A stretch of DNA of 64,000 nt from a virus: the IMG/VR virus record IMGVR_UViG_3300033153_006492, positions 1 through 64,000 of that record, one strand, 5' to 3'. Shown piece after piece: positions 7,283-34,597 of this stretch (positions are counted from its first letter, which is position 1; every line of letters begins with the position of its first letter). The notes under the pieces were generated by a model, which worked only from the letters and a program-made list of their open reading frames with translations, was not told the DNA's origin and ran no database searches. Made by a program: the position numbers and the translations under genes.

Positions 7283-8137
7283 ATGGAAGTTCAAAGTTTA
7301 TCAATTTTAATTCCCGCAGGATGCCCAAACAGGTGTCCTTTCTGTGTTTCTCACATGAATAAAGAAAACAAAAAATTTAGAACAAATGTAAATATTGATT
7401 TGGATTCTGTCAAACGAAGAATGGAATTTGCTCGCGACAATGGAACAAATACTTTAATGATTACATCAACTGGTGAAGCATTAGAAAATATGGATTATGT
7501 GATTCATATTCTCGATATAAATAAAAGATTGCCGTCTCCTTTTAAATGGATTGAATTACAGACAAGTGGTGTTGGTTTAATGGATTGTATAAATGAATAT
7601 GGTTATAGTATGAATAAGATTAATACGATTAGCATCAGTGTTGTCGACATATTCAGTTCTGAATATAATTCTAAATGGATGAAAATGCCTGCTGGTCGTG
7701 AAGTTGATTTGGATGAATTGGTTAAGTTTTTGAAAGAACGAAATTTTAATGTTCGTATATCAATTAATTTAACTAACATATATAATAATATTGCTGTTGA
7801 AGATCTGTATCAACGACTGGGAGAATTGGATGTTGACCAAGTAACATTTCGGAAATTATATTTGAATGGTAATGGAAGCAAACAAGATAACTGGATTGAA
7901 AAAAATAAACTTGATTATGAAACTTTCAATGATATAATTGAATATGTAGAAGATAATGGAAACGCTCTTGAATTATTACCATTTGGCGCAATGAAATATT
8001 CGTTGAATGGAATATCAACAGTAATTGATGACGACTGTATGAGTAAAGAAGTTAGAAATGTGTTGAAGTATTTAATTATCCGTGAGAATGGAAAATTATA
8101 TTCTCGTTGGGATGATAAAGGTTCTTTAATTTTTTAG
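7283..8137 (+). CDS. radical SAM protein
   Basis: CPNRCPFC (CxxxCxxC) and TGE motif; ends in TAG. Confidence 0.85.
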   Translation: MEVQSLSILIPAGCPNRCPFCVSHMNKENKKFRTNVNIDLDSVKRRMEFARDNGTNTLMITSTGEALENMDYVIHILDINKRLPSPFKWIELQTSGVGLMDCINEYGYSMNKINTISISVVDIFSSEYNSKWMKMPAGREVDLDELVKFLKERNFNVRISINLTNIYNNIAVEDLYQRLGELDVDQVTFRKLYLNGNGSKQDNWIEKNKLDYETFNDIIEYVEDNGNALELLPFGAMKYSLNGISTVIDDDCMSKEVRNVLKYLIIRENGKLYSRWDDKGSLIF

Positions 8138-8149
8138 AAAGGTTATGTT

Positions 8150-8353
8150 ATGAACGAATATAAAATAATTACTGCAAGTTCTGCAGGTGAATTAACAAAA
8201 AAAGTAAATAAAATCATGATGGAAGAACATTTTACGCCGAATGGTTCACATCATGTAATTGAAATACATCGTCAAAATCGTTATAGGGGAACTGAACTTA
8301 TTGATACGGTTATTACACGAGAGTATTCACAAACAATGAAATTGAAAATTTAA
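8150..8353 (+). CDS. small hypothetical protein (DUF1737-like)
   Basis: YKIITA...LTKKVN...YSQTM pattern. Confidence 0.6.
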   Translation: MNEYKIITASSAGELTKKVNKIMMEEHFTPNGSHHVIEIHRQNRYRGTELIDTVITREYSQTMKLKI

Positions 8354-9028: not shown

Positions 9029-10189
9029 ATGATACATTCGATGTTAGATAATGATTTGTATAAGTTTTCAATGCAACAGGCAGTAATGAAATTATATCCC
9101 AGTGCAAAAGTGAAATATAAATTCATTGATCGAGGTGCTACGTATTTTCCTGAAAAAATGGTCGCTGAATTGAAACAGGCTGTTAAGGATATGGAAGGTT
9201 TGTATCTTACTTTTAATGAACGTAAGTTTTTAGAAGAAAAGGTATATTTCTTTAATCCTGTTTATGTTGATTTCTTAAATGGTTATCGTTATAAATCTGA
9301 TGAAGTTGATATTAACTGGGATTCTGGCGAACTACAAATTACCATTGAAGGATATTGGTTTCGTACAATCTTATGGGAAGTACCTTTAATGGCTTTGGTT
9401 TCTGAATTATATTTTAAACATACCGGTGCTTCAGTTATCTGGAGCGATTTAGATATTCGCAACGAACATAAGGCTGAAGATTTTAAGGAATTGGATGTTA
9501 AGATTGCTGATTTTGGAACTCGTCGTCGGTATTCATATAAAAGCCAACAAAGATTAGTTGAAGAATTTAATAAATGGAATTTCTTTGTTGGAACAAGTAA
9601 TATGCATTTCGCAGAAAAATACAACTTAACTCCAATTGGAACACAGGCTCACGAATGGTTTATGTTTCATGCTGCTAAGTATGGATTTCATCAAGCTAAT
9701 TCTATTTCGTTGGGTCGTTGGGTTGATGTATATAATGGTGATTTGGGGATTGCATTGTCTGATACTTTTACAACTGAATCATTTTTCAAATCGTTTGATA
9801 CATTGTATGCTAAATTATTTGATGGTGTTCGTCACGATTCAGGTGACGCTATCAAATTTGGAAATGAAGTTGAAAAACATTATGAAAAGTTAGGGATTCC
9901 ACCTACCAGCAAAACAATTGTATTTTCTGATGGATTGGACTTTGATGAAGTACAACGTATAGAATCATATGGCTGGAAAATAAAACGGTCATATGGTATT
10001 GGAACTTGGTTATCAAATGATATTCCTGACGTTCATCCGCTAAATATGGTAATTAAAATGGTAGCTGCTAAACCAAGTGGTGAAGACGAATGGATTAACA
10101 CAATAAAGTTAAGCGACGATGAAGGAAAACATACTGGAAATCGGAAAACAATTGAATTAGCAAAAAATGTACTTAATATAAAGGAGTAA
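9029..10189 (+). CDS. pncB: nicotinate phosphoribosyltransferase
   Basis: DNDLYKFSM, DFGTRRRYS, GTQAHEW, RHDSGD, VFSDGL, YGIGT motifs. Confidence 0.95.
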   Translation: MIHSMLDNDLYKFSMQQAVMKLYPSAKVKYKFIDRGATYFPEKMVAELKQAVKDMEGLYLTFNERKFLEEKVYFFNPVYVDFLNGYRYKSDEVDINWDSGELQITIEGYWFRTILWEVPLMALVSELYFKHTGASVIWSDLDIRNEHKAEDFKELDVKIADFGTRRRYSYKSQQRLVEEFNKWNFFVGTSNMHFAEKYNLTPIGTQAHEWFMFHAAKYGFHQANSISLGRWVDVYNGDLGIALSDTFTTESFFKSFDTLYAKLFDGVRHDSGDAIKFGNEVEKHYEKLGIPPTSKTIVFSDGLDFDEVQRIESYGWKIKRSYGIGTWLSNDIPDVHPLNMVIKMVAAKPSGEDEWINTIKLSDDEGKHTGNRKTIELAKNVLNIKE

Positions 10190-10193
10190 TTTA

Positions 10194-10397
10194 ATGAAAC
10201 TTGAAATGAGATCAATACTGGTTATTATTGTAATTGTATTAGTTTTTGTAATGTCGTGGGCGTCATTCAATCACATTGACAATTCATATATAATGAAAGA
10301 CGACATTGAACTTGAACGATTACAGTCAGAAAATGATAGTTTGAAAACTGTCATTAAAGATTTACAGCCTAAAGACAAAGGAGATACTGATGAGTAA
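10194..10397 (+). CDS. hypothetical membrane-anchored protein
   Basis: N-terminal TM segment, short coiled coil. Confidence 0.6.
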   Translation: MKLEMRSILVIIVIVLVFVMSWASFNHIDNSYIMKDDIELERLQSENDSLKTVIKDLQPKDKGDTDE

Positions 10398-11799
10398 TTT
10401 ACAGCAAATTGGTGAAAACATTGCCGACAAACTCGGTCATGAAGAAACCATTGTAATGAGAACTAACGATGCTCGCTATCGTTATTATCAGTGGTTACGA
10501 GATTGGTATGGTATGGGTCAACAAGAAGCAACGAATAAATGTCCATTCTATCAATTTATGTTTTGGGGTAGTTTAATAATGTTGGTTTCTATTATTCCAA
10601 TTATTTTATTGAAAATCACTGAATGGGTTGTTCTTAAACCGTTAACATGGGTTGTTCCTGATGTAATTGATGATATATACAAAAAAATAATTAATCCCAG
10701 TAAAATGATAGCGGCCTGGCTTTTAACGTTTGTTTTGTTTGTTGTTGCTGTGGTTATAACTCTATTTGTTTATGGCGAACTTCTTTACTGGATAGGATTT
10801 GGAATTCTTTTTGTTTATGCTATTCCGTATGCTATTATATGGGCGATTGGAACTGGGCTTGTGGTGGTTGTAACACTTGGATTACCTATGATGTTTACTG
10901 GTATTGGGATAGGATTCAGTTATTTGTTCAATGGTATCGGATTAGTTCCCTGGGGTCAAATGTTTATATATTTAGGGCTTGGGATAGCATTTTTATTTGT
11001 GTTTCTGGTTTTATTGGTATCAATATATCAACTTACTATTCTTTTATTTGAATCTAAATTTTCTAATTGGGTTATTAAAAAGTCATGTATTATTCGTGAA
11101 AATAGTATTGGAAAAAATAAAGAACGTAGAGAACGAATTATAGCTAATCAAGAATTAAAAGAACAAGCTCAATTAAAATGGAATTTGGAACATAAAGATG
11201 AACTTGAACTTGAAAGAATAGAAAGCGAAGCACGATGTAAGGAACGAGATGAATCTATTGAACAATGGGTAGAATCTATTATTGGATTGTTTGGGTTTGT
11301 TTGGTCTGGTTTGAAAATTTTTCCAGGTTACCCTTTTATTTGGGCTTGGTTACTCATTAAACAAATTGGACTTGGCATTTGGTGGGTTATGAAAAAAATT
11401 GGTGATTTTTGTGTTATCGTATGGTCACTTGCTACTGAGACTGTTAGCAATCATTGTCCTCCAATTGATTTTATATTTAATGTAAATGATGAAGGTTTAT
11501 TAATCGCACAACGTAAATACGATGGTTATGTATTTCTTTGTGAAAACGAAGAACGTACTATTGTTATTGAAGAATTACCAGACACATTTGATATTAAACC
11601 AGGATTGAAAGATGGTTTAAAGTGTCGTATCCAATGCACTATTTGTACTAAAGATGTTGAGACAGCGCAATATGATAAAGCTAATAACTGGAGTAGCGTA
11701 TATGAAAGTCTTATACATCCATCACCTGTGTATGAAATTCAATCGTTGGAATATGTTAAAGTACCAAAAAAACGAAAAAGTAAGAAGGTAACAAAATGA
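10390..11799 (+). CDS. polytopic membrane protein, unknown function
   Basis: 469 aa, multiple TM segments and a charged linker. Confidence 0.8.
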   Translation: MSNLQQIGENIADKLGHEETIVMRTNDARYRYYQWLRDWYGMGQQEATNKCPFYQFMFWGSLIMLVSIIPIILLKITEWVVLKPLTWVVPDVIDDIYKKIINPSKMIAAWLLTFVLFVVAVVITLFVYGELLYWIGFGILFVYAIPYAIIWAIGTGLVVVVTLGLPMMFTGIGIGFSYLFNGIGLVPWGQMFIYLGLGIAFLFVFLVLLVSIYQLTILLFESKFSNWVIKKSCIIRENSIGKNKERRERIIANQELKEQAQLKWNLEHKDELELERIESEARCKERDESIEQWVESIIGLFGFVWSGLKIFPGYPFIWAWLLIKQIGLGIWWVMKKIGDFCVIVWSLATETVSNHCPPIDFIFNVNDEGLLIAQRKYDGYVFLCENEERTIVIEELPDTFDIKPGLKDGLKCRIQCTICTKDVETAQYDKANNWSSVYESLIHPSPVYEIQSLEYVKVPKKRKSKKVTK

Positions 11800-12053
11800 T
11801 AAGATTTTTCAAAACATATATGGGTATCTTTAAGGTGCCCATATTTTGGGGTGTTGTTATATTCTTTTTCCTTACAGCGATATTGGGAAACGCTTCCGGC
11901 CCATTAATTTTACTTTTCATAAAATCTGTGGCGTTGGCAATGATAATGGCTTTTTTGGCTGTTGTGATGAAATTTCTTGAACAAAAATATGGAAAAGGTA
12001 ATAATTTTCTGGAACAAAAATATGGAAGAACAGGGAACAAAAATAAAAAATAA
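11796..12053 (+). CDS. hypothetical membrane protein
   Basis: Two TM segments; duplicated FLEQKYG tail. Confidence 0.6.
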   Translation: MIRFFKTYMGIFKVPIFWGVVIFFFLTAILGNASGPLILLFIKSVALAMIMAFLAVVMKFLEQKYGKGNNFLEQKYGRTGNKNKK

Positions 12054-12058
12054 TCGTT

Positions 12059-12070
12059 TATATATTTATA
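12059..12070 (+). promoter_or_regulatory. candidate phage late promoter
   Basis: TATATATTTATA, recurring in intergenic gaps. Confidence 0.55.
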
Positions 12071-12100
12071 AGTGTAATCTAAAAAAGAAAGGAAACCATT

Positions 12101-12163
12101 ATGTTTGAATATTGGTTAGGAAATTACGGTTAGGGTTTTCCGTAGATAAATAAACCTCCATAA
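12101..12163 (+). CDS. leader peptide MFEYWLGNYG*GFP*INKPP with two in-frame TAG codons
   Basis: AAAGGA RBS, ATG 12101, TAG at 12131 and 12143, CCT-CCA-TAA at 12155-12163. Confidence 0.65.
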
Positions 12164-12219
12164 TTTTTCTTTATTCTTAAATGTTATTAACTAATCGAAA
12201 TAAGAATAAAGGAGAATTA
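12161..12219 (+). promoter_or_regulatory. RBS-sequestering hairpin (translational attenuator)
   Basis: 19-bp stem 12161-12179/12201-12219 (17 Watson-Crick + 2 GU) covering the AAGGAG of ORF 12222. Confidence 0.75.
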
Positions 12220-12221
12220 AA

Positions 12222-12608
12222 ATGATGAATCATAAAGAATTTTATCAATCGAAAAAGTATTATCTTAAAGGTTTAGCACAACAACTTCATGATCTTAGAC
12301 TTGAATTCAAAGAATCACAGCGTAATAATCGAGGTGAAGGTGATTATAGATTATGGATGAACATTCAAAAAATAAGGTATGAATATCGGCATCAACATAT
12401 AGCGAATACATTAGCACGTAAACTTAACGCTAACACTCATACTGAAAATGGAGTTTTAACTGCTGAAGCTATTGAATGGTATAACAGAATTGAAGCAAAG
12501 GTAAAGGATGGAAATGAAGCGAATTTTGACTACATTGGACGACTTTCTGAAGAGTATCCCTCTTTACAGGAGGTATATGATGAAACGTCTGTATGTGTTG
12601 ACGCGTAA
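12222..12608 (+). CDS. hypothetical protein upstream of pth2
   Basis: AAGGAG RBS; YEYRHQHIA motif. Confidence 0.75.
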   Translation: MMNHKEFYQSKKYYLKGLAQQLHDLRLEFKESQRNNRGEGDYRLWMNIQKIRYEYRHQHIANTLARKLNANTHTENGVLTAEAIEWYNRIEAKVKDGNEANFDYIGRLSEEYPSLQEVYDETSVCVDA

Positions 12609-12939
12609 TGACTTAGGTGCGGTTTATCAATCAGTTCAAGGAGCACATGCAGTTGCACAATTTATGTTAGATTATCCTGATAATGAATGGAAGAATGGTT
12701 ATCTTATTTTTCTTGCCGTGGAAAATGAAAAAGAATTGTATGATTGGAAAGAACAAGTTGTATTTAAGAATTCAACAAAATCAATTCTGAAACAAACTCC
12801 CGTGTCAGGCTTTTTTGAACCTGATTTAGATAATCAATTAACTGCAGTTGCCGTGTATTCTACTGGTTCTAAATTCAGTAAGTTACCTATTGTTACTGCA
12901 CCAATTATGGATGATGCTGACAATGATGGTGCGGTGTGA
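12577..12939 (+). CDS. pth2: peptidyl-tRNA hydrolase 2-like protein
   Basis: LYVLTRNDL...QGAHA...IFLAV...FFEPDLDNQLTAVA; GGAGG RBS before ATG 12577. Confidence 0.8.
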   Translation: MMKRLYVLTRNDLGAVYQSVQGAHAVAQFMLDYPDNEWKNGYLIFLAVENEKELYDWKEQVVFKNSTKSILKQTPVSGFFEPDLDNQLTAVAVYSTGSKFSKLPIVTAPIMDDADNDGAV

Positions 12940-12946
12940 TATTAAT

Positions 12947-12972
12947 ATGGCGGCGGTAATGTCGCCATTTTT
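12947..12972 (+). terminator. intrinsic terminator-like hairpin between pth2 and suppressor tRNA
   Basis: ATGGCGGC-GGTAAT-GTCGCCAT plus T run. Confidence 0.6.
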
Positions 12973-12974
12973 AT

Positions 12975-13049
12975 CTGCTTGTAGCTCAGCCCGGTAGAGC
13001 GGAGAACTCTAAATTCTCGCCAGCGTCGGTTCGAATCCGACCAAGCGGA
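12975..13049 (+). tRNA. amber suppressor tRNA (CTA)
   Basis: Canonical cloverleaf: CTGCTTG/CAAGCGG-A, D arm GCTCAGCCCGGTAGAGC, GAGAA-CTCTAAA-TTCTC, GTCGG-TTCGAAT-CCGAC. Confidence 0.92.
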
Positions 13050-13074
13050 CGACAAGGATAGGAGAATAAATACA

Positions 13075-13344
13075 ATGATTAGTGAAGAAAAAAGAGCATT
13101 GGATGAAGCAAAACAACTGATTAAGACATATGGACAAAAGTATTTAATCAAGCATTTAATGGACATTGAAACTATTATAATGAAAATTGATACACCAGCC
13201 TCATTAGAATGTAATGGAATTGTTGTTTTACCAAAGCCGAAAATTAAAAAAGAATCTACTGATAAATTCAATAAAAATAATTTCCTATTTGGTATATTGA
13301 TTGGAATTTTATTTGGTATTGTATTTACAGTAGTGCTTATATAA
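13075..13344 (+). CDS. hypothetical protein, C-terminal TM
   Basis: AGGAG RBS. Confidence 0.65.
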   Translation: MISEEKRALDEAKQLIKTYGQKYLIKHLMDIETIIMKIDTPASLECNGIVVLPKPKIKKESTDKFNKNNFLFGILIGILFGIVFTVVLI

Positions 13345-13359
13345 CTAAGGAGAAATTAT

Positions 13360-13836
13360 GTGGACAACATAACATATTTTATATTATTTATTTTTATACT
13401 TGGAATTTTGAATAGATTGCGGGAATTTTCTGACAACACAGGTTTTGATTCGTGGTGGGAAAACAGTTGGTTCGCAAAAATTAAAAATCAATTTTGGTTC
13501 AAATGGTTTAGGTCTAATCCATCGGATAAACACAAGCGAATATATTTATTACGATGGATTGGATTTATTGAAAGATGGAATCTGAAATTTACTAAATCTG
13601 AAACGTGGAAACGAATAAAGAATTTTAGTATTCCAAATCATCCAGCATTTTATGATGGTTATCATAATTTTAAATCAATCACATTGTTAGTGATATCTGT
13701 TTATGCAGGTATTCAATTTGGTTGGTATTGGATATTTGTATCGTGGCTTGCTTGGTATGTTGGACAAAAATTAACATACGCTGCTTTATTACGAAGCACG
13801 TGGGATTGGATTAAAAAAGTTATGTGGTTCAAATAA
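13360..13836 (+). CDS. hypothetical Trp-rich membrane protein
   Basis: AAGGAG RBS; DGYHNFK motif. Confidence 0.65.
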   Translation: MDNITYFILFIFILGILNRLREFSDNTGFDSWWENSWFAKIKNQFWFKWFRSNPSDKHKRIYLLRWIGFIERWNLKFTKSETWKRIKNFSIPNHPAFYDGYHNFKSITLLVISVYAGIQFGWYWIFVSWLAWYVGQKLTYAALLRSTWDWIKKVMWFK

Positions 13837-13854
13837 AATAGTAAAGGAAATAAG

Positions 13855-14052
13855 ATGATTAATAAAATGACGCTTCATACTGGAGAAAGTGATAATATTA
13901 TTTACATTGATTGGGATGGAAAACAGAAAAAACAAAAAGATATGATGCGTGTTGAAATAAAAGTACATAAAAATCATACTGTTAGAGTACTTGAAATTAA
14001 CATAAATGATGAAAATATAGTAACATTATTAGATGAGGAAGAAGATGCCTAA
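13855..14052 (+). CDS. hypothetical protein
   Basis: ORF track, RBS. Confidence 0.55.
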   Translation: MINKMTLHTGESDNIIYIDWDGKQKKQKDMMRVEIKVHKNHTVRVLEININDENIVTLLDEEEDA

Positions 14053-15290: not shown

Positions 15291-15506
15291 ATGGACATTA
15301 TTGATTTTCAAGATAAACGATGGCAAGTAAAACATAGAGTCCGAGACGAAGGAATAACGTCTGAGGGATTAGAATGGTTTAAGTGGTACAAAGGAGCCAC
15401 AATGGTTTTGAAAAAAGATGGTGTCCTTCTTTTCGTTGACGAAATAGTTGACGCTGAATTTGAAGATTTTCCATATAAAAAAGATGAAAAAACACTTGAC
15501 AATTAA
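15291..15506 (+). CDS. hypothetical protein
   Basis: AGGAG RBS. Confidence 0.65.
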   Translation: MDIIDFQDKRWQVKHRVRDEGITSEGLEWFKWYKGATMVLKKDGVLLFVDEIVDAEFEDFPYKKDEKTLDN

Positions 15507-34036: not shown

Positions 34037-34267
34037 ATGTATAAAGCAGGAGAGTTTGATTTTGAATTCAAGTTACCATTTAAATCTAATAATTTCAATG
34101 TTGTAATTTATAAATGGAAAATAATAGACACAAAAAGATATGGTCGTAAAGTAGTTGTACAAGGCTATGGAAATGATGGCGAATTGTATGATGGACAAGC
34201 GAGCATAACTGCTAAGGGTGTCATAAAGAATGTTCATGTAGATATTAACAGTGGGAGGTGGGAATAG
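34037..34267 (+). CDS. hypothetical protein
   Basis: ORF track; TAG directly followed by in-frame ATG. Confidence 0.6.
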   Translation: MYKAGEFDFEFKLPFKSNNFNVVIYKWKIIDTKRYGRKVVVQGYGNDGELYDGQASITAKGVIKNVHVDINSGRWE

Positions 34268-34597
34268 ATGCTTGTTCAAGAATGTTACAGAATAGTTGAA
34301 GTAAAGAATGGTGATTATTATAGTTTATTTCATGGAACGAAAAGGTCACGAAAATTAGAACGTGGTAAATGGTTATCAGCCGACAAGAAAATTGTAAATG
34401 ATGGTTCGTGTGCTACGAAGTATGAATCTGGTTGGCATGTCTTAAAATCTAAAGAAGAAACAGAACAATTTTTAGAAAAAATGTTTCGTGTAAAAAAGGA
34501 TCGAAGAGTTATACCTGTTTTAGTCATGGGGCTTCGCCCAAAATCACACAGTCGACATGAAGTATATTTAGCAGACGAAATGTTTATATTTGAATGA
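34268..34597 (+). CDS. hypothetical protein
   Basis: GGAGG RBS; SLFHG...YESGWH. Confidence 0.7.
   Translation: MLVQECYRIVEVKNGDYYSLFHGTKRSRKLERGKWLSADKKIVNDGSCATKYESGWHVLKSKEETEQFLEKMFRVKKDRRVIPVLVMGLRPKSHSRHEVYLADEMFIFE

What the first reader, a model, noticed from the sequence alone, without database searches (positions are those of the whole stretch)
12937..13049. Terminator 7 nt after the pth2 stop gates the suppressor tRNA: possible positive feedback
Seen: an 8-bp GC-rich hairpin plus T5 (12947-12972) lies between the pth2 TGA (12937-12939) and the suppressor tRNA (12975), with no room for a separate intergenic promoter. Inference: a ribosome at the pth2 stop would cover the hairpin 5' arm and allow transcription into the tRNA. 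Amber readthrough of the leader would then raise suppressor tRNA levels, giving a self-amplifying, timed change in UAG meaning.
Basis: inference. Interest (0 to 1): 0.7.

Follow-up and report, generated by a model that had tools for sequence, protein, structure and literature searches.

The report
Leaky terminator before phage suppressor tRNA
A small hairpin-plus-T-run that looks like a transcription stop signal sits directly in front of a phage amber-suppressor tRNA gene and is kept in related giant phages, inside a previously undescribed operon that appears to sense amber readthrough, so it may help control how much "stop-codon-reading" tRNA the phage makes.

Summary
A 9-bp hairpin (12947-12968) plus T5 lies 7 nt after the TGA of a Pth2-fold gene and 2 nt before a canonical tRNA-CUA (12975-13049). 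Alone it is statistically marginal. Relatives with 40-79% identical Pth2-like proteins carry unrelated GC stems plus T-runs at the same junction. Their stop codon is always 9 nt or less before the stem, or inside it.

No match to either promoter class of this phage lies between 12070 and 15496, so tRNA-CUA needs readthrough.

The element sits in a conserved, apparently undescribed module: late-type promoter, mini-ORF with two in-frame TAGs ending Pro-Pro-stop, an SD-hiding stem, orfX, Pth2-like gene, then tRNA-CUA. A suppressor tRNA accompanies the Pth2-like gene in 52 of 67 distinct loci.

Another clade has the same leader and module but no hairpin, with the tRNA 4-7 nt after the stop. The terminator is therefore a clade-specific add-on, not the core logic.

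Ribosome occlusion fits the geometry and has E. coli precedent, but it is untested and the host is unknown. Neither this fragment nor a 91%-complete relative shows TAG-recoded genes, so a "timed change in UAG meaning" is not supported.

Verdict: a real, conserved, probably leaky attenuator. The positive-feedback loop is plausible but unproven (about 0.25).

The parts
12056..12070 (+). Promoter-like motif GTTTATATATTTATA, the second (late-like) promoter class of this phage and the probable start of the module's transcript
   Evidence: TATATTTATA occurs 5 times in the window against 1.4 expected, and 7 times in the record. All copies are on the + strand and intergenic, including sites upstream of structural genes. 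The motif is conserved upstream of the leader in relatives. Promoter function is inferred.
12101..12163 (+). Leader mini-ORF M-F-E-Y-W-L-G-N-Y-G-TAG-G-F-P-TAG-I-N-K-P-P-TAA. The in-frame TAGs are at 12131-12133 and 12143-12145; Pro-Pro-TAA is at 12155-12163.
   Evidence: The pattern x-G-F-(T/P/R)-x ... (K)PP-stop is kept in 7 close relatives, with variants (ISGFT, IGYT, ITDT) in 6 distant ones. Changes are synonymous third-position changes and indels in multiples of 3. The motif occurs once per genome.
12161..12219 (+). Long stem that starts at the leader stop codon and buries the AAGGAG SD of orfX
   Evidence: An equivalent SD-sequestering stem is predicted in most of the relatives folded: all 7 close relatives and L010, L014, L060, L062 and L033 among 6 distant ones, but not L013 (-3.3 kcal/mol). 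Arm sequences differ between relatives.
12222..12608 (+). orfX, a 128-aa helical protein of unknown function that overlaps the start of the Pth2-like gene
   Evidence: It is conserved upstream of the Pth2-like gene in both the hairpin and no-hairpin clades. It has no Pfam, PHROG, PDB or Atlas match.
12577..12939 (+). Pth2-fold (peptidyl-tRNA hydrolase 2-like) gene, stop TGA at 12937-12939
   Evidence: PHROG 3668 'hydrolase', E = 1e-9. The profile's only PDB hit is Pth2 2zv3, E = 0.003. The AF2 model has pLDDT 88, and the top Foldseek hits are all archaeal or human Pth2, TM 0.63-0.69. No Pfam hit.
12947..12972 (+). Terminator-like hairpin (12947-12968, 9 bp, GUAA loop, about -12.6 kcal/mol) plus T-run (12968-12972)
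   Evidence: Structure, not sequence, is conserved in L036, L037, L038, L040, L041, L045/L002, L046, L047, L067, L018, L019 and L024.
12975..13049 (+). tRNA with anticodon CUA (amber suppressor type). No encoded CCA. Amino-acid identity undetermined.
   Evidence: ARAGORN. Rfam tRNA 56.3 bits. The 7-nt loop is CUCUAAA. Its nearest tRNA in the phage is only 67% identical.
13075..13344 (+). First downstream ORF. Its SD (GGAGAA) follows about 13 nt after the tRNA, with no terminator between, so the tRNA lies inside an operon.
   Evidence: Relatives have the same layout, with an SD and ATG 15-25 nt after the tRNA. The next strong promoter is at 15496.

Best explanation
The hairpin plus T-run at 12947-12972 is a genuine, evolutionarily maintained intrinsic-terminator-type element. 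It acts as a leaky attenuator inside an operon.

Inferred layout: transcription starts at the late-type promoter near 12056-12070. It runs through the amber-containing leader, orfX and the Pth2-like gene, and meets the hairpin 2 nt before tRNA-CUA.

Nothing resembling either promoter class of this phage lies between 12070 and 15496. So tRNA-CUA and the ORFs up to about 15.5 kb are made only by polymerases that read through. The element therefore throttles the dose of suppressor tRNA.

The element looks weaker than the phage's operon-end terminators. It has about -12.6 kcal/mol and four U after the stem before the tRNA sequence begins. The others have -14 to -17 kcal/mol and T5-T7. Partial readthrough is therefore expected.

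The stop codon lies 7 nt before the stem. A ribosome finishing the Pth2-like ORF directly behind the polymerase would block closure of the stem base and raise readthrough. This step is inferred. Its size depends on transcription-translation coupling in an unknown host.

After RNase P cuts at tRNA +1, the same hairpin would also cap the 3' end of the upstream mRNA.
For: Sequence anatomy.

Same class as the phage's other terminators. Strong GC hairpins with T-runs are nearly all on the gene strand at gene ends, and each is followed by a TTGACA-17-TATATTCTG promoter.

Structure is conserved with complete sequence turnover at the Pth2-stop/tRNA junction.
- The relatives span 40-79% protein identity.
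- Fold z-scores run from -2.1 to -8.4, except L067 at -1.3.
- L019 and L024 differ by a compensatory T-A to A-T change.
- T-runs accompany the hairpins but not the hairpin-less junctions.

Of 14 distinct loci with a stop-to-tRNA gap of 10 nt or more, 12 have a GC hairpin plus T-run.

The feature is enriched before tRNA-CUA: 11 of 40, against 5 of 113 other tRNAs. It also precedes tRNA-CUA in L015 and L016, where the Pth2-like gene is elsewhere. It is absent after pth2 in L009, where the tRNA has moved away. So it belongs to the tRNA junction.

No promoter match lies between. The weak cTGACA-17-TATTAA match is not conserved in L036.

The tRNA is followed by the next gene's SD with no terminator, here and in relatives.

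Stop-to-stem distance:
- It is 9 nt or less, or the two overlap, at the 13 hairpin junctions that directly follow a Pth2-like ORF. L015 also has it, at 8 nt after another ORF's TAG.
- The window's six other strong terminators lie 23-89 nt after their stops.
- The E. coli precedent for ribosome repression of stop-proximal terminators is PMC4824070.
Against: - There is no transcript data of any kind.
- Taken alone, the window's hairpin is not statistically exceptional (z = -1.4 to -2.4).
- A sister clade (L006, L010, L012-L014, L060, L062, L084) and L009 do without the hairpin. It is therefore dispensable for the module.
- The tight stop-hairpin spacing could simply reflect compaction. The ancestral gap between ORF and tRNA is 4-7 nt.
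- In L016 the nearest standard-code stop is about 94 nt upstream of the hairpin.
- Translation of orfX and pth2 starts only after leader readthrough, so the lead ribosome may trail the polymerase too far to matter.
- Phage promoters that do not fit the two recognised motifs cannot be excluded.
Confidence: 0.6

Rival explanations
1. Amber suppression lets ribosomes pass both leader TAGs. They reach the Pro-Pro-stop and open the SD-hiding stem. orfX and the Pth2-like ORF are then translated. The ribosome terminating at 12937 blocks the terminator hairpin, so more tRNA-CUA is transcribed. This extends the best explanation rather than excluding it.
For: - The leader and the SD-sequestering stem are conserved with synonymous and compensatory variation in about a dozen divergent relatives.
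- The stop is 9 nt or less from the hairpin, or inside it, at the 13 junctions that follow a Pth2-like ORF.
- Ribosome repression of a terminator 5 bp after a stop has been shown in E. coli (PMC4824070).
- In L018, L019, L024, L029 and L058 the Pth2-like ORF itself carries an in-frame TAG. Pth2 synthesis therefore depends on suppression by a second route.
Against: - The hairpin-less clade keeps the leader, orfX, Pth2-like gene and tRNA. The conserved logic is 'suppression switches on orfX/Pth2', not 'translation switches on the tRNA'.
- Co-transcriptional occlusion needs a ribosome right behind the polymerase about 880 nt after the start. Here translation initiation is delayed by two suppression events and a Pro-Pro-stop.
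- The host is unknown. The only hint is that the NAPRTase is nearest to Ignavibacteriales and Bacteroidales.
- No recoded target genes were found that would profit from a switch.
Confidence: 0.25
2. The hairpin is mainly an RNA-level element rather than a terminator. RNase P cleavage at tRNA +1 would leave the orfX-pth2 mRNA ending in hairpin-UUUUAU. That end would be protected from 3' exonucleases. The hairpin could also insulate tRNA folding from the translated mRNA.
For: - The hairpin ends within 0-7 nt of tRNA +1 in most relatives.
- It tracks the tRNA junction rather than the end of pth2.
- The tRNA is internal to an operon and must be excised.
Against: - A protective hairpin needs no U-run, yet T-runs accompany the hairpins and are absent from the hairpin-less leaders.
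- In L019 and L024 the hairpin lies about 20 nt from the tRNA.
- The hairpin-less clade has no such protection.
- This role is compatible with termination and may coexist with it.
Confidence: 0.2
3. The hairpin is a full operon-end terminator, and the tRNA is transcribed from its own promoter inside or overlapping the end of pth2. One candidate is cTGACA (12917) - 17 nt - TATTAA (12940), which would start transcription inside the hairpin.
For: A weak sigma70-like match can be read in the sequence.
Against: - The consensus scan does not report it.
- It does not fit either promoter class of the phage.
- It is not conserved in the closest relative L036 or in others.
- The downstream ORFs also lack promoters until 15496.
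Confidence: 0.05
4. The hairpin is a chance inverted repeat with no function.
For: The fold z-scores in the window alone are -1.4 to -2.4. The lenient scan count is not above the shuffles.
Against: Hairpins plus T-runs recur at the same junction with unrelated sequences in many relatives. They are enriched relative to other tRNAs.
Confidence: 0.03

Closest known systems
Ribosome repression of stop-codon-proximal intrinsic terminators (tR2 position series in E. coli; Li et al. 2016, PMC4824070)
   Same: A hairpin plus U-run lies a few nt after a stop codon. A terminating ribosome covers the stem base. Readthrough then depends on translation of the upstream ORF.
   Different: That system is an engineered reporter. 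Here the arrangement is natural and conserved, it gates a tRNA gene, and translation of the upstream ORF is itself conditional on amber readthrough. Nothing has been measured here.
Leader-peptide transcription attenuators (trp, his, pyrBI, tna)
   Same: Ribosome position on a short or upstream ORF decides whether a terminator acts.
   Different: No alternative antiterminator hairpin was found. The ORF involved is a full-length gene, not the leader. In this module the leader controls an SD-sequestering stem, which is translational control as in ermC or cat leaders.
Synthetic 'Uaa transcriptional switch': UAG codons placed in trp or tna leader peptides so that downstream expression needs an amber suppressor (review PMC6412442, section 6)
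   Same: In-frame UAG in a leader peptide converts suppressor activity into expression of downstream genes.
   Different: That system is man-made. The one here is natural, uses two UAGs plus a Pro-Pro-stop, and has the suppressor tRNA gene in the same operon.
Phage 'code change modules' and suppressor tRNAs of recoded phages (Borges et al. preprint 10.1101/2021.08.26.457843; jumbo phage survey PMC13037316)
   Same: A phage-encoded tRNA-CUA is clustered with translation-related genes. How its expression is timed is an open question.
   Different: Those modules hold an aaRS and a release factor next to recoded lysis genes. Here the partners are a Pth2-fold protein and orfX, and no recoded genes were found. 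Term searches of the Borges preprint found no mention of a hydrolase, terminator, leader or feedback; a search of PMC13037316 found no mention of a hydrolase.
Theta (HDV-like) ribozymes flanking phage suppressor tRNAs (PMC10879173)
   Same: A cis-acting RNA element abuts a phage suppressor tRNA and is proposed to control its maturation or timing.
   Different: The ribozyme lies on the 3' side and self-cleaves. The element here lies on the 5' side, is terminator-like, and gave no Rfam hit other than the tRNA.
PTH2 of jumbo phages (Iyer et al. 2021, PMC7824862)
   Same: Archaeo-eukaryotic-type Pth2 fold encoded by jumbo phages, proposed to act in ribosome rescue.
   Different: A term search of that paper found the word 'suppressor' nowhere in its text. 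The family here falls below Pfam's threshold, and the archaeal catalytic Lys position is not conserved in the profile alignment.

Membership tests
Intrinsic (Rho-independent) transcription terminator | GC-rich stem of about 5-14 bp with a loop of 3-8 nt | tested here: met
   9 bp with 5 G-C pairs, loop GUAA, about -12.6 kcal/mol
Intrinsic (Rho-independent) transcription terminator | U-run immediately 3' of the stem | tested here: met
   T at 12968-12972, then AT. This is shorter than the T5-T7 of the phage's other terminators.
Intrinsic (Rho-independent) transcription terminator | Structure conserved, not sequence, at the orthologous place | tested here: met
   Unrelated stems plus T-runs at the same junction in at least 12 distinct relatives
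Intrinsic (Rho-independent) transcription terminator | RNA 3' ends 7-9 nt after the stem, in vitro or in vivo | not testable with these tools
   No sequencing run was listed
Translation-sensitive (ribosome-occluded) terminator | Stop codon within about 10-15 nt of the stem base | tested here: met
   7 nt here. In relatives it ranges from 9 nt before the stem to inside it. The criterion comes from PMC4824070.
Translation-sensitive (ribosome-occluded) terminator | The downstream gene has no promoter of its own | tested here: met
   No match to either promoter class between 12070 and 15496. Non-consensus promoters cannot be excluded.
Translation-sensitive (ribosome-occluded) terminator | Ribosome closely coupled to RNA polymerase in the host | not testable with these tools
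   Host unknown. The only hint is a weak one from the NAPRTase homologues.
Pth2 peptidyl-tRNA hydrolase (PF01981) | Match to the Pfam model above its gathering score | tested here: not met
   No Pfam family at E <= 0.01
Pth2 peptidyl-tRNA hydrolase (PF01981) | Pth2 fold | tested here: met
   AF2 pLDDT 88. The top Foldseek hits are 2zv3, 3erj, 1wn2, 1xty and 1q7s, TM 0.63-0.69. The profile's only PDB hit is 2zv3, E = 0.003.
Pth2 peptidyl-tRNA hydrolase (PF01981) | Catalytic residues of archaeal or human Pth2 | tested here: inconclusive
   R-x-D-L and Q-G-x-H-A align with 2zv3. The GKGK lysines are not conserved. An invariant E81 and T89 align near the DAG...T region.
Amber suppressor tRNA | Canonical cloverleaf and a 7-nt anticodon loop with U33, CUA and purine 37 | tested here: met
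   RF00005 56.3 bits. ARAGORN CUA. Loop CUCUAAA.
Amber suppressor tRNA | Decodes UAG in vivo | not testable with these tools
   The only indirect support is the conserved two-TAG leader in the same operon
Phage code-change module / TAG-recoded phage (code 15) | In-frame TAG inside conserved (late) genes | tested here: not met
   Code-11 ORFs cover the record. The baseplate gene and its homologues have no internal stops. In G002 (91% complete), ORF coverage is 0.87 under code 11 and 0.90 with TAG read as sense, and no Pfam domain spans a TAG.

The most novel reading that the evidence does not exclude
The module is a natural, self-reinforcing amber-readthrough switch.
- A two-UAG, Pro-Pro-stop leader measures suppressor activity.
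- It unlocks translation of orfX and the Pth2-like gene.
- The ribosome finishing the Pth2-like ORF (or relief of polarity in the hairpin-less clade) lets RNA polymerase run into the suppressor tRNA gene.
- UAG readthrough would then flip from off to on at a set time in infection.
Probability: 0.22. Interest if true: 0.85.

Novelty: new variant of a known kind. Interest (0 to 1): 0.6.

Why it matters
How phages time and dose their suppressor tRNAs is an acknowledged open question. PMC10879173 states that what triggers the code switch is poorly understood.

This locus offers a compact, testable cis-regulatory arrangement of about 1 kb. It holds a promoter, an amber-sensing leader, orfX, a Pth2-fold gene, a terminator-like hairpin and tRNA-CUA. 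It recurs in jumbo-phage contigs from many samples.

If the hairpin is a translation-sensitive attenuator, it would be a natural case of tRNA transcription gated by decoding of the codon that the tRNA reads.

Two findings stand even if it is only a leaky terminator:
- the tight linkage of a Pth2-fold gene with suppressor tRNAs (52 of 67 loci);
- the conserved two-UAG leader.

I did not find either in the papers searched. Both suggest that phages couple amber suppression to peptidyl-tRNA or ribosome-rescue housekeeping.

Tried and rejected
Contexts of the 60-80% identical metagenome homologues came from the search for related loci instead.
- Sequencing runs: none was listed for 11800-14000, and no RNA holder was listed.
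- Promoter inside pth2: the weak cTGACA-17-TATTAA match was rejected. It is not reported by the scan and is not conserved.
- Antiterminator: no upstream segment complementary to the 5' arm was seen in the sequence.
- TAG recoding was looked for in the 78.7-kb record and in the 292.7-kb relative G002 and was not found. Two TAG-ending genes with long in-frame extensions remain undecided.
- Amino-acid identity of the tRNA: no close parent among the phage's 22 other tRNAs, at most 67% identity.
- Function of orfX and of ORF 10390-11799: Pfam, PHROGs, Atlas, a PDB profile search and (for orfX) an AF2 model with Foldseek all gave nothing usable.
- Counting independent origins of the hairpin on a Pth2 tree: the tree is too poorly resolved. 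It gives 6 changes, but one origin is not excluded.
- Host: only a weak hint, from NAPRTase homologues in Ignavibacteriales and Bacteroidales. Cultured phages with the protein (XacN1, Moby) have no adjacent suppressor tRNA.

Full report
**Context.** The window is the first 64 kb of a 78.7-kb IMG/VR virus record. CheckV puts its completeness at 37% and its GC is 33%. It carries 23 tRNA genes. One has anticodon CUA at 12975-13049 (Rfam tRNA, 56.3 bits).

**Observation.** The sequence shows the following layout.
- The TGA of an ORF (12577-12939) is at 12937-12939.
- A 7-nt spacer follows.
- The stem pairs 12947-12955 with 12960-12968. It has 9 pairs: 5 G-C, 2 A-U and 2 G-U, around a GUAA loop.
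- T runs from 12968 to 12972, then AT, then tRNA +1 at 12975.

The pattern scan ranks this as the best terminator-like site in 9-17 kb. On its own it is weak evidence.
- The folding z-score is -2.4 for 51 nt and -1.4 for 45 nt.
- The lenient scan count equals the shuffle expectation.

**The 'pth2' label.**
- Pfam gives nothing.
- PHROGs gives 'hydrolase' at E = 1e-9.
- A profile of 36 homologues hits only the archaeal Pth2 structure 2zv3 in the PDB, at E = 0.003.
- An AlphaFold model (pLDDT 88) matches only Pth2 structures at the top of a Foldseek search, with TM 0.63-0.69.

The fold is therefore Pth2-like. The catalytic equivalence is unresolved.

**How this phage terminates and initiates.** A genome-wide scan finds about nine strong GC hairpins with T-runs, nearly all on the gene strand.
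- Six clear ones lie 23-89 nt after stop codons.
- Each is followed by a strong promoter of the form TTGACA-17-TATATTCTG.
- A second motif, TATATTTATA, occurs 7 times. All copies are on the + strand and intergenic, including sites before structural genes. One lies at 12056-12070.
- Neither motif occurs between 12070 and 15496.

The tRNA and the ORFs from 13075 to about 15500 therefore depend on readthrough of the 12947 hairpin. This hairpin is weaker than the operon-end terminators (-12.6 kcal/mol, with four U after the stem) and unusually close to its stop codon.

**Comparative evidence.** Scans of viral and metagenome contigs gave 70 distinct loci that encode the Pth2-like protein. Of the 67 with usable flanks:
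- 52 have a suppressor tRNA in the locus, nearly all CUA and a few UUA;
- 36 have one within 500 nt downstream;
- 23 have one within 60 nt downstream.

Lak megaphages have a tRNA-UUA about 600 nt upstream.

At the junction itself there are two designs.

*Hairpin design.* In the window's clade and in some others, an unrelated GC stem plus a T-run lies between, or overlaps, the stop and the tRNA. These loci are L036, L037, L038, L040, L041, L045/L002, L046, L047, L067, L018 and L019/L024/L029.
- Fold z-scores run from -2.1 to -8.4, except L067 at -1.3.
- L019 and L024 differ by a compensatory change.
- The stop codon is 7-9 nt before the stem, in the loop, or in the 3' arm.

*Hairpin-less design.* In another clade (L006, L010, L012-L014, L060, L062, L084) the tRNA starts 4-7 nt after the stop, with no hairpin and no T-run.

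Further points on the junction:
- Hairpins directly 5' of the tRNA occur in 11 of 40 distinct tRNA-CUA genes, against 5 of 113 other tRNAs in the same loci.
- They also precede tRNA-CUA in L015 and L016, where the Pth2-like gene lies elsewhere.
- They are missing after pth2 in L009, where three ORFs separate it from the tRNA.
- In all relatives the tRNA is followed at once by the next gene's SD.

The hairpin therefore belongs to the tRNA junction, lies inside an operon, and is under selection. It is not universal.

**The leader.** The window's mini-ORF runs from 12101 to 12163, with in-frame TAGs at 12131 and 12143 and CCT-CCA-TAA at its end.
- Seven close relatives keep it as M..x-G-F-(T/P/R)-x-..-(K)PP-stop. 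They show synonymous third-position changes (GGT/GGC/GGA, TTT/TTC, CCT/CCG) and length differences in whole codons.
- Six members of the hairpin-less and other distant clades keep it too, for example MLxISGFTxIRVFKPP-stop.
- In all seven close relatives and in five of the six distant ones (not L013), the leader's last codons or the bases just after its stop form the 5' arm of a stem. That stem pairs with the SD of the next gene, orfX. The arm sequences differ between relatives.
- The motif is unique in each genome.
- orfX is a conserved helical protein with no known relatives.
- In several distant relatives the Pth2-like ORF itself holds an in-frame TAG.

The well-supported core logic is that amber suppression switches on synthesis of orfX and Pth2.

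**Mechanism.** What is shown by sequence and comparison:
- terminator-type anatomy;
- conservation of structure;
- no promoter-consensus match downstream;
- a position inside an operon;
- a stop codon within the ribosome footprint.

What is established elsewhere: a ribosome at a stop 5 bp before terminator tR2 lowers termination from about 90% to under 10% in E. coli, and removing translation restores it (PMC4824070).

What is inferred: the same happens here. With the leader gate, this would give positive feedback on tRNA-CUA.

Reasons for caution:
- The host is unknown, so coupling is unknown.
- Translation of orfX and pth2 starts late, after two suppression events and a Pro-Pro-stop.
- The hairpin-less clade shows that the module works without this gate.
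- The spacing may reflect compaction.

RNase P cleavage at tRNA +1 would also leave the upstream mRNA capped by this hairpin. This is a non-exclusive alternative role.

**UAG meaning.**
- The record uses TAG as a stop for about 14 of 112 called genes.
- Its baseplate gene and the homologues in relatives have no internal stops.
- The 91%-complete relative G002 shows no TAG-recoded region, and no Pfam domain spans a TAG there.

A genome-wide code switch is therefore not supported. The suppressor's visible targets are ordinary TAG stops and the leader itself.

A reasonable inferred rationale for the Pth2 link is clean-up of peptidyl-tRNA or stalled ribosomes produced by readthrough. One relative has a tmRNA gene just downstream (L052).

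**Literature.** The stop-codon recoding preprint and the theta-ribozyme paper do not mention a hydrolase, terminator or leader; the preprint was also searched for 'feedback', without a hit. Iyer et al. noted PTH2 in jumbo phages; a term search found 'suppressor' nowhere in that paper. Synthetic UAG-in-leader switches exist (PMC6412442).

**Verdict.**
- The element is a real, conserved, probably leaky attenuator in front of the suppressor tRNA (0.6).
- The translation-gated positive-feedback loop is plausible but unproven (about 0.25).
- It is a new variant of known attenuation principles, set in a module that appears undescribed.

Noticed in passing
window 12577-13049; loci L002-L089: The Pth2-fold gene is linked to a suppressor tRNA across jumbo-phage contigs. 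Of 67 distinct loci, 52 have a tRNA-CUA (rarely UUA) in the locus, and 23 have one within 60 nt downstream. Lak megaphages have a tRNA-UUA about 600 nt upstream. I did not find this in the papers searched.
   Followed up: yes
window 12101-12219; L010:2114-2164, L014:2156-2206, L060:1122-1169, L062:1124-1171, L033:2057-2107: The two-TAG, Pro-Pro-stop leader and its SD-hiding stem are conserved even in the distant hairpin-less clade. This looks like an ancient natural sensor of amber suppression.
   Followed up: yes
L018:2603, L019/L024/L029:2594, L058:679: In these relatives the Pth2-like ORF itself contains an in-frame TAG. Its synthesis would then need the adjacent suppressor tRNA.
   Followed up: partly
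L052:2100-2506; L054:1018-1091; L047:454-528; L032:3094-3249: Variants at the same position downstream of the Pth2-like gene: a tmRNA gene (L052), a tRNA-UUA (L054), a tRNA called Arg-CCT whose loop reads CUCCUAG (L047), and two tandem tRNA-CUA genes (L032).
   Followed up: no
L012:1200-1273: ARAGORN reports a tRNA with a four-base anticodon (cttg) about 1.5 kb upstream of the Pth2-like gene. It could be a quadruplet or frameshift-suppressor tRNA, or an artefact.
   Followed up: no
window 7226, 15496, 18940, 19292, 28298, 35737, 36287, 45020, 47925 and 12061, 24489, 27209, 46047, 50953 (also 64243 and 73040 in the record): There are two promoter-like motif classes, all on the + strand and intergenic. 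TTGACA-17-TATATTCTG often follows directly after a terminator. TATATTTATA is reminiscent of T4 late promoters.
   Followed up: partly
window 7283-8353 and 34037-34597: Two genes end in TAG but continue in frame, for 72 and 110 codons. The first is a radical-SAM protein. They may be readthrough targets of the suppressor, or simply adjacent ORFs in the same frame.
   Followed up: partly
window 11818-11848: A strong hairpin (-14.3 kcal/mol) plus TTTT lies 18 nt after the stop of ORF 10390-11799, but inside the overlapping membrane-protein ORF 11796-12053, just upstream of the module's promoter.
   Followed up: no
window 9029-10189: The phage NAPRTase has its nearest cellular homologues (about 60% identity) in Ignavibacteriales, Melioribacteraceae and Bacteroidales MAGs. 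This is a weak host hint that sits oddly with the phage's strong SD sites and sigma70-type promoters.
   Followed up: partly
L119:17409-19211 (G002 97406-99211, minus strand): In the relative G002, a T4-type RNA ligase domain and an HD domain lie in one frame separated by a single TAG. They are either two genes or a readthrough fusion.
   Followed up: no
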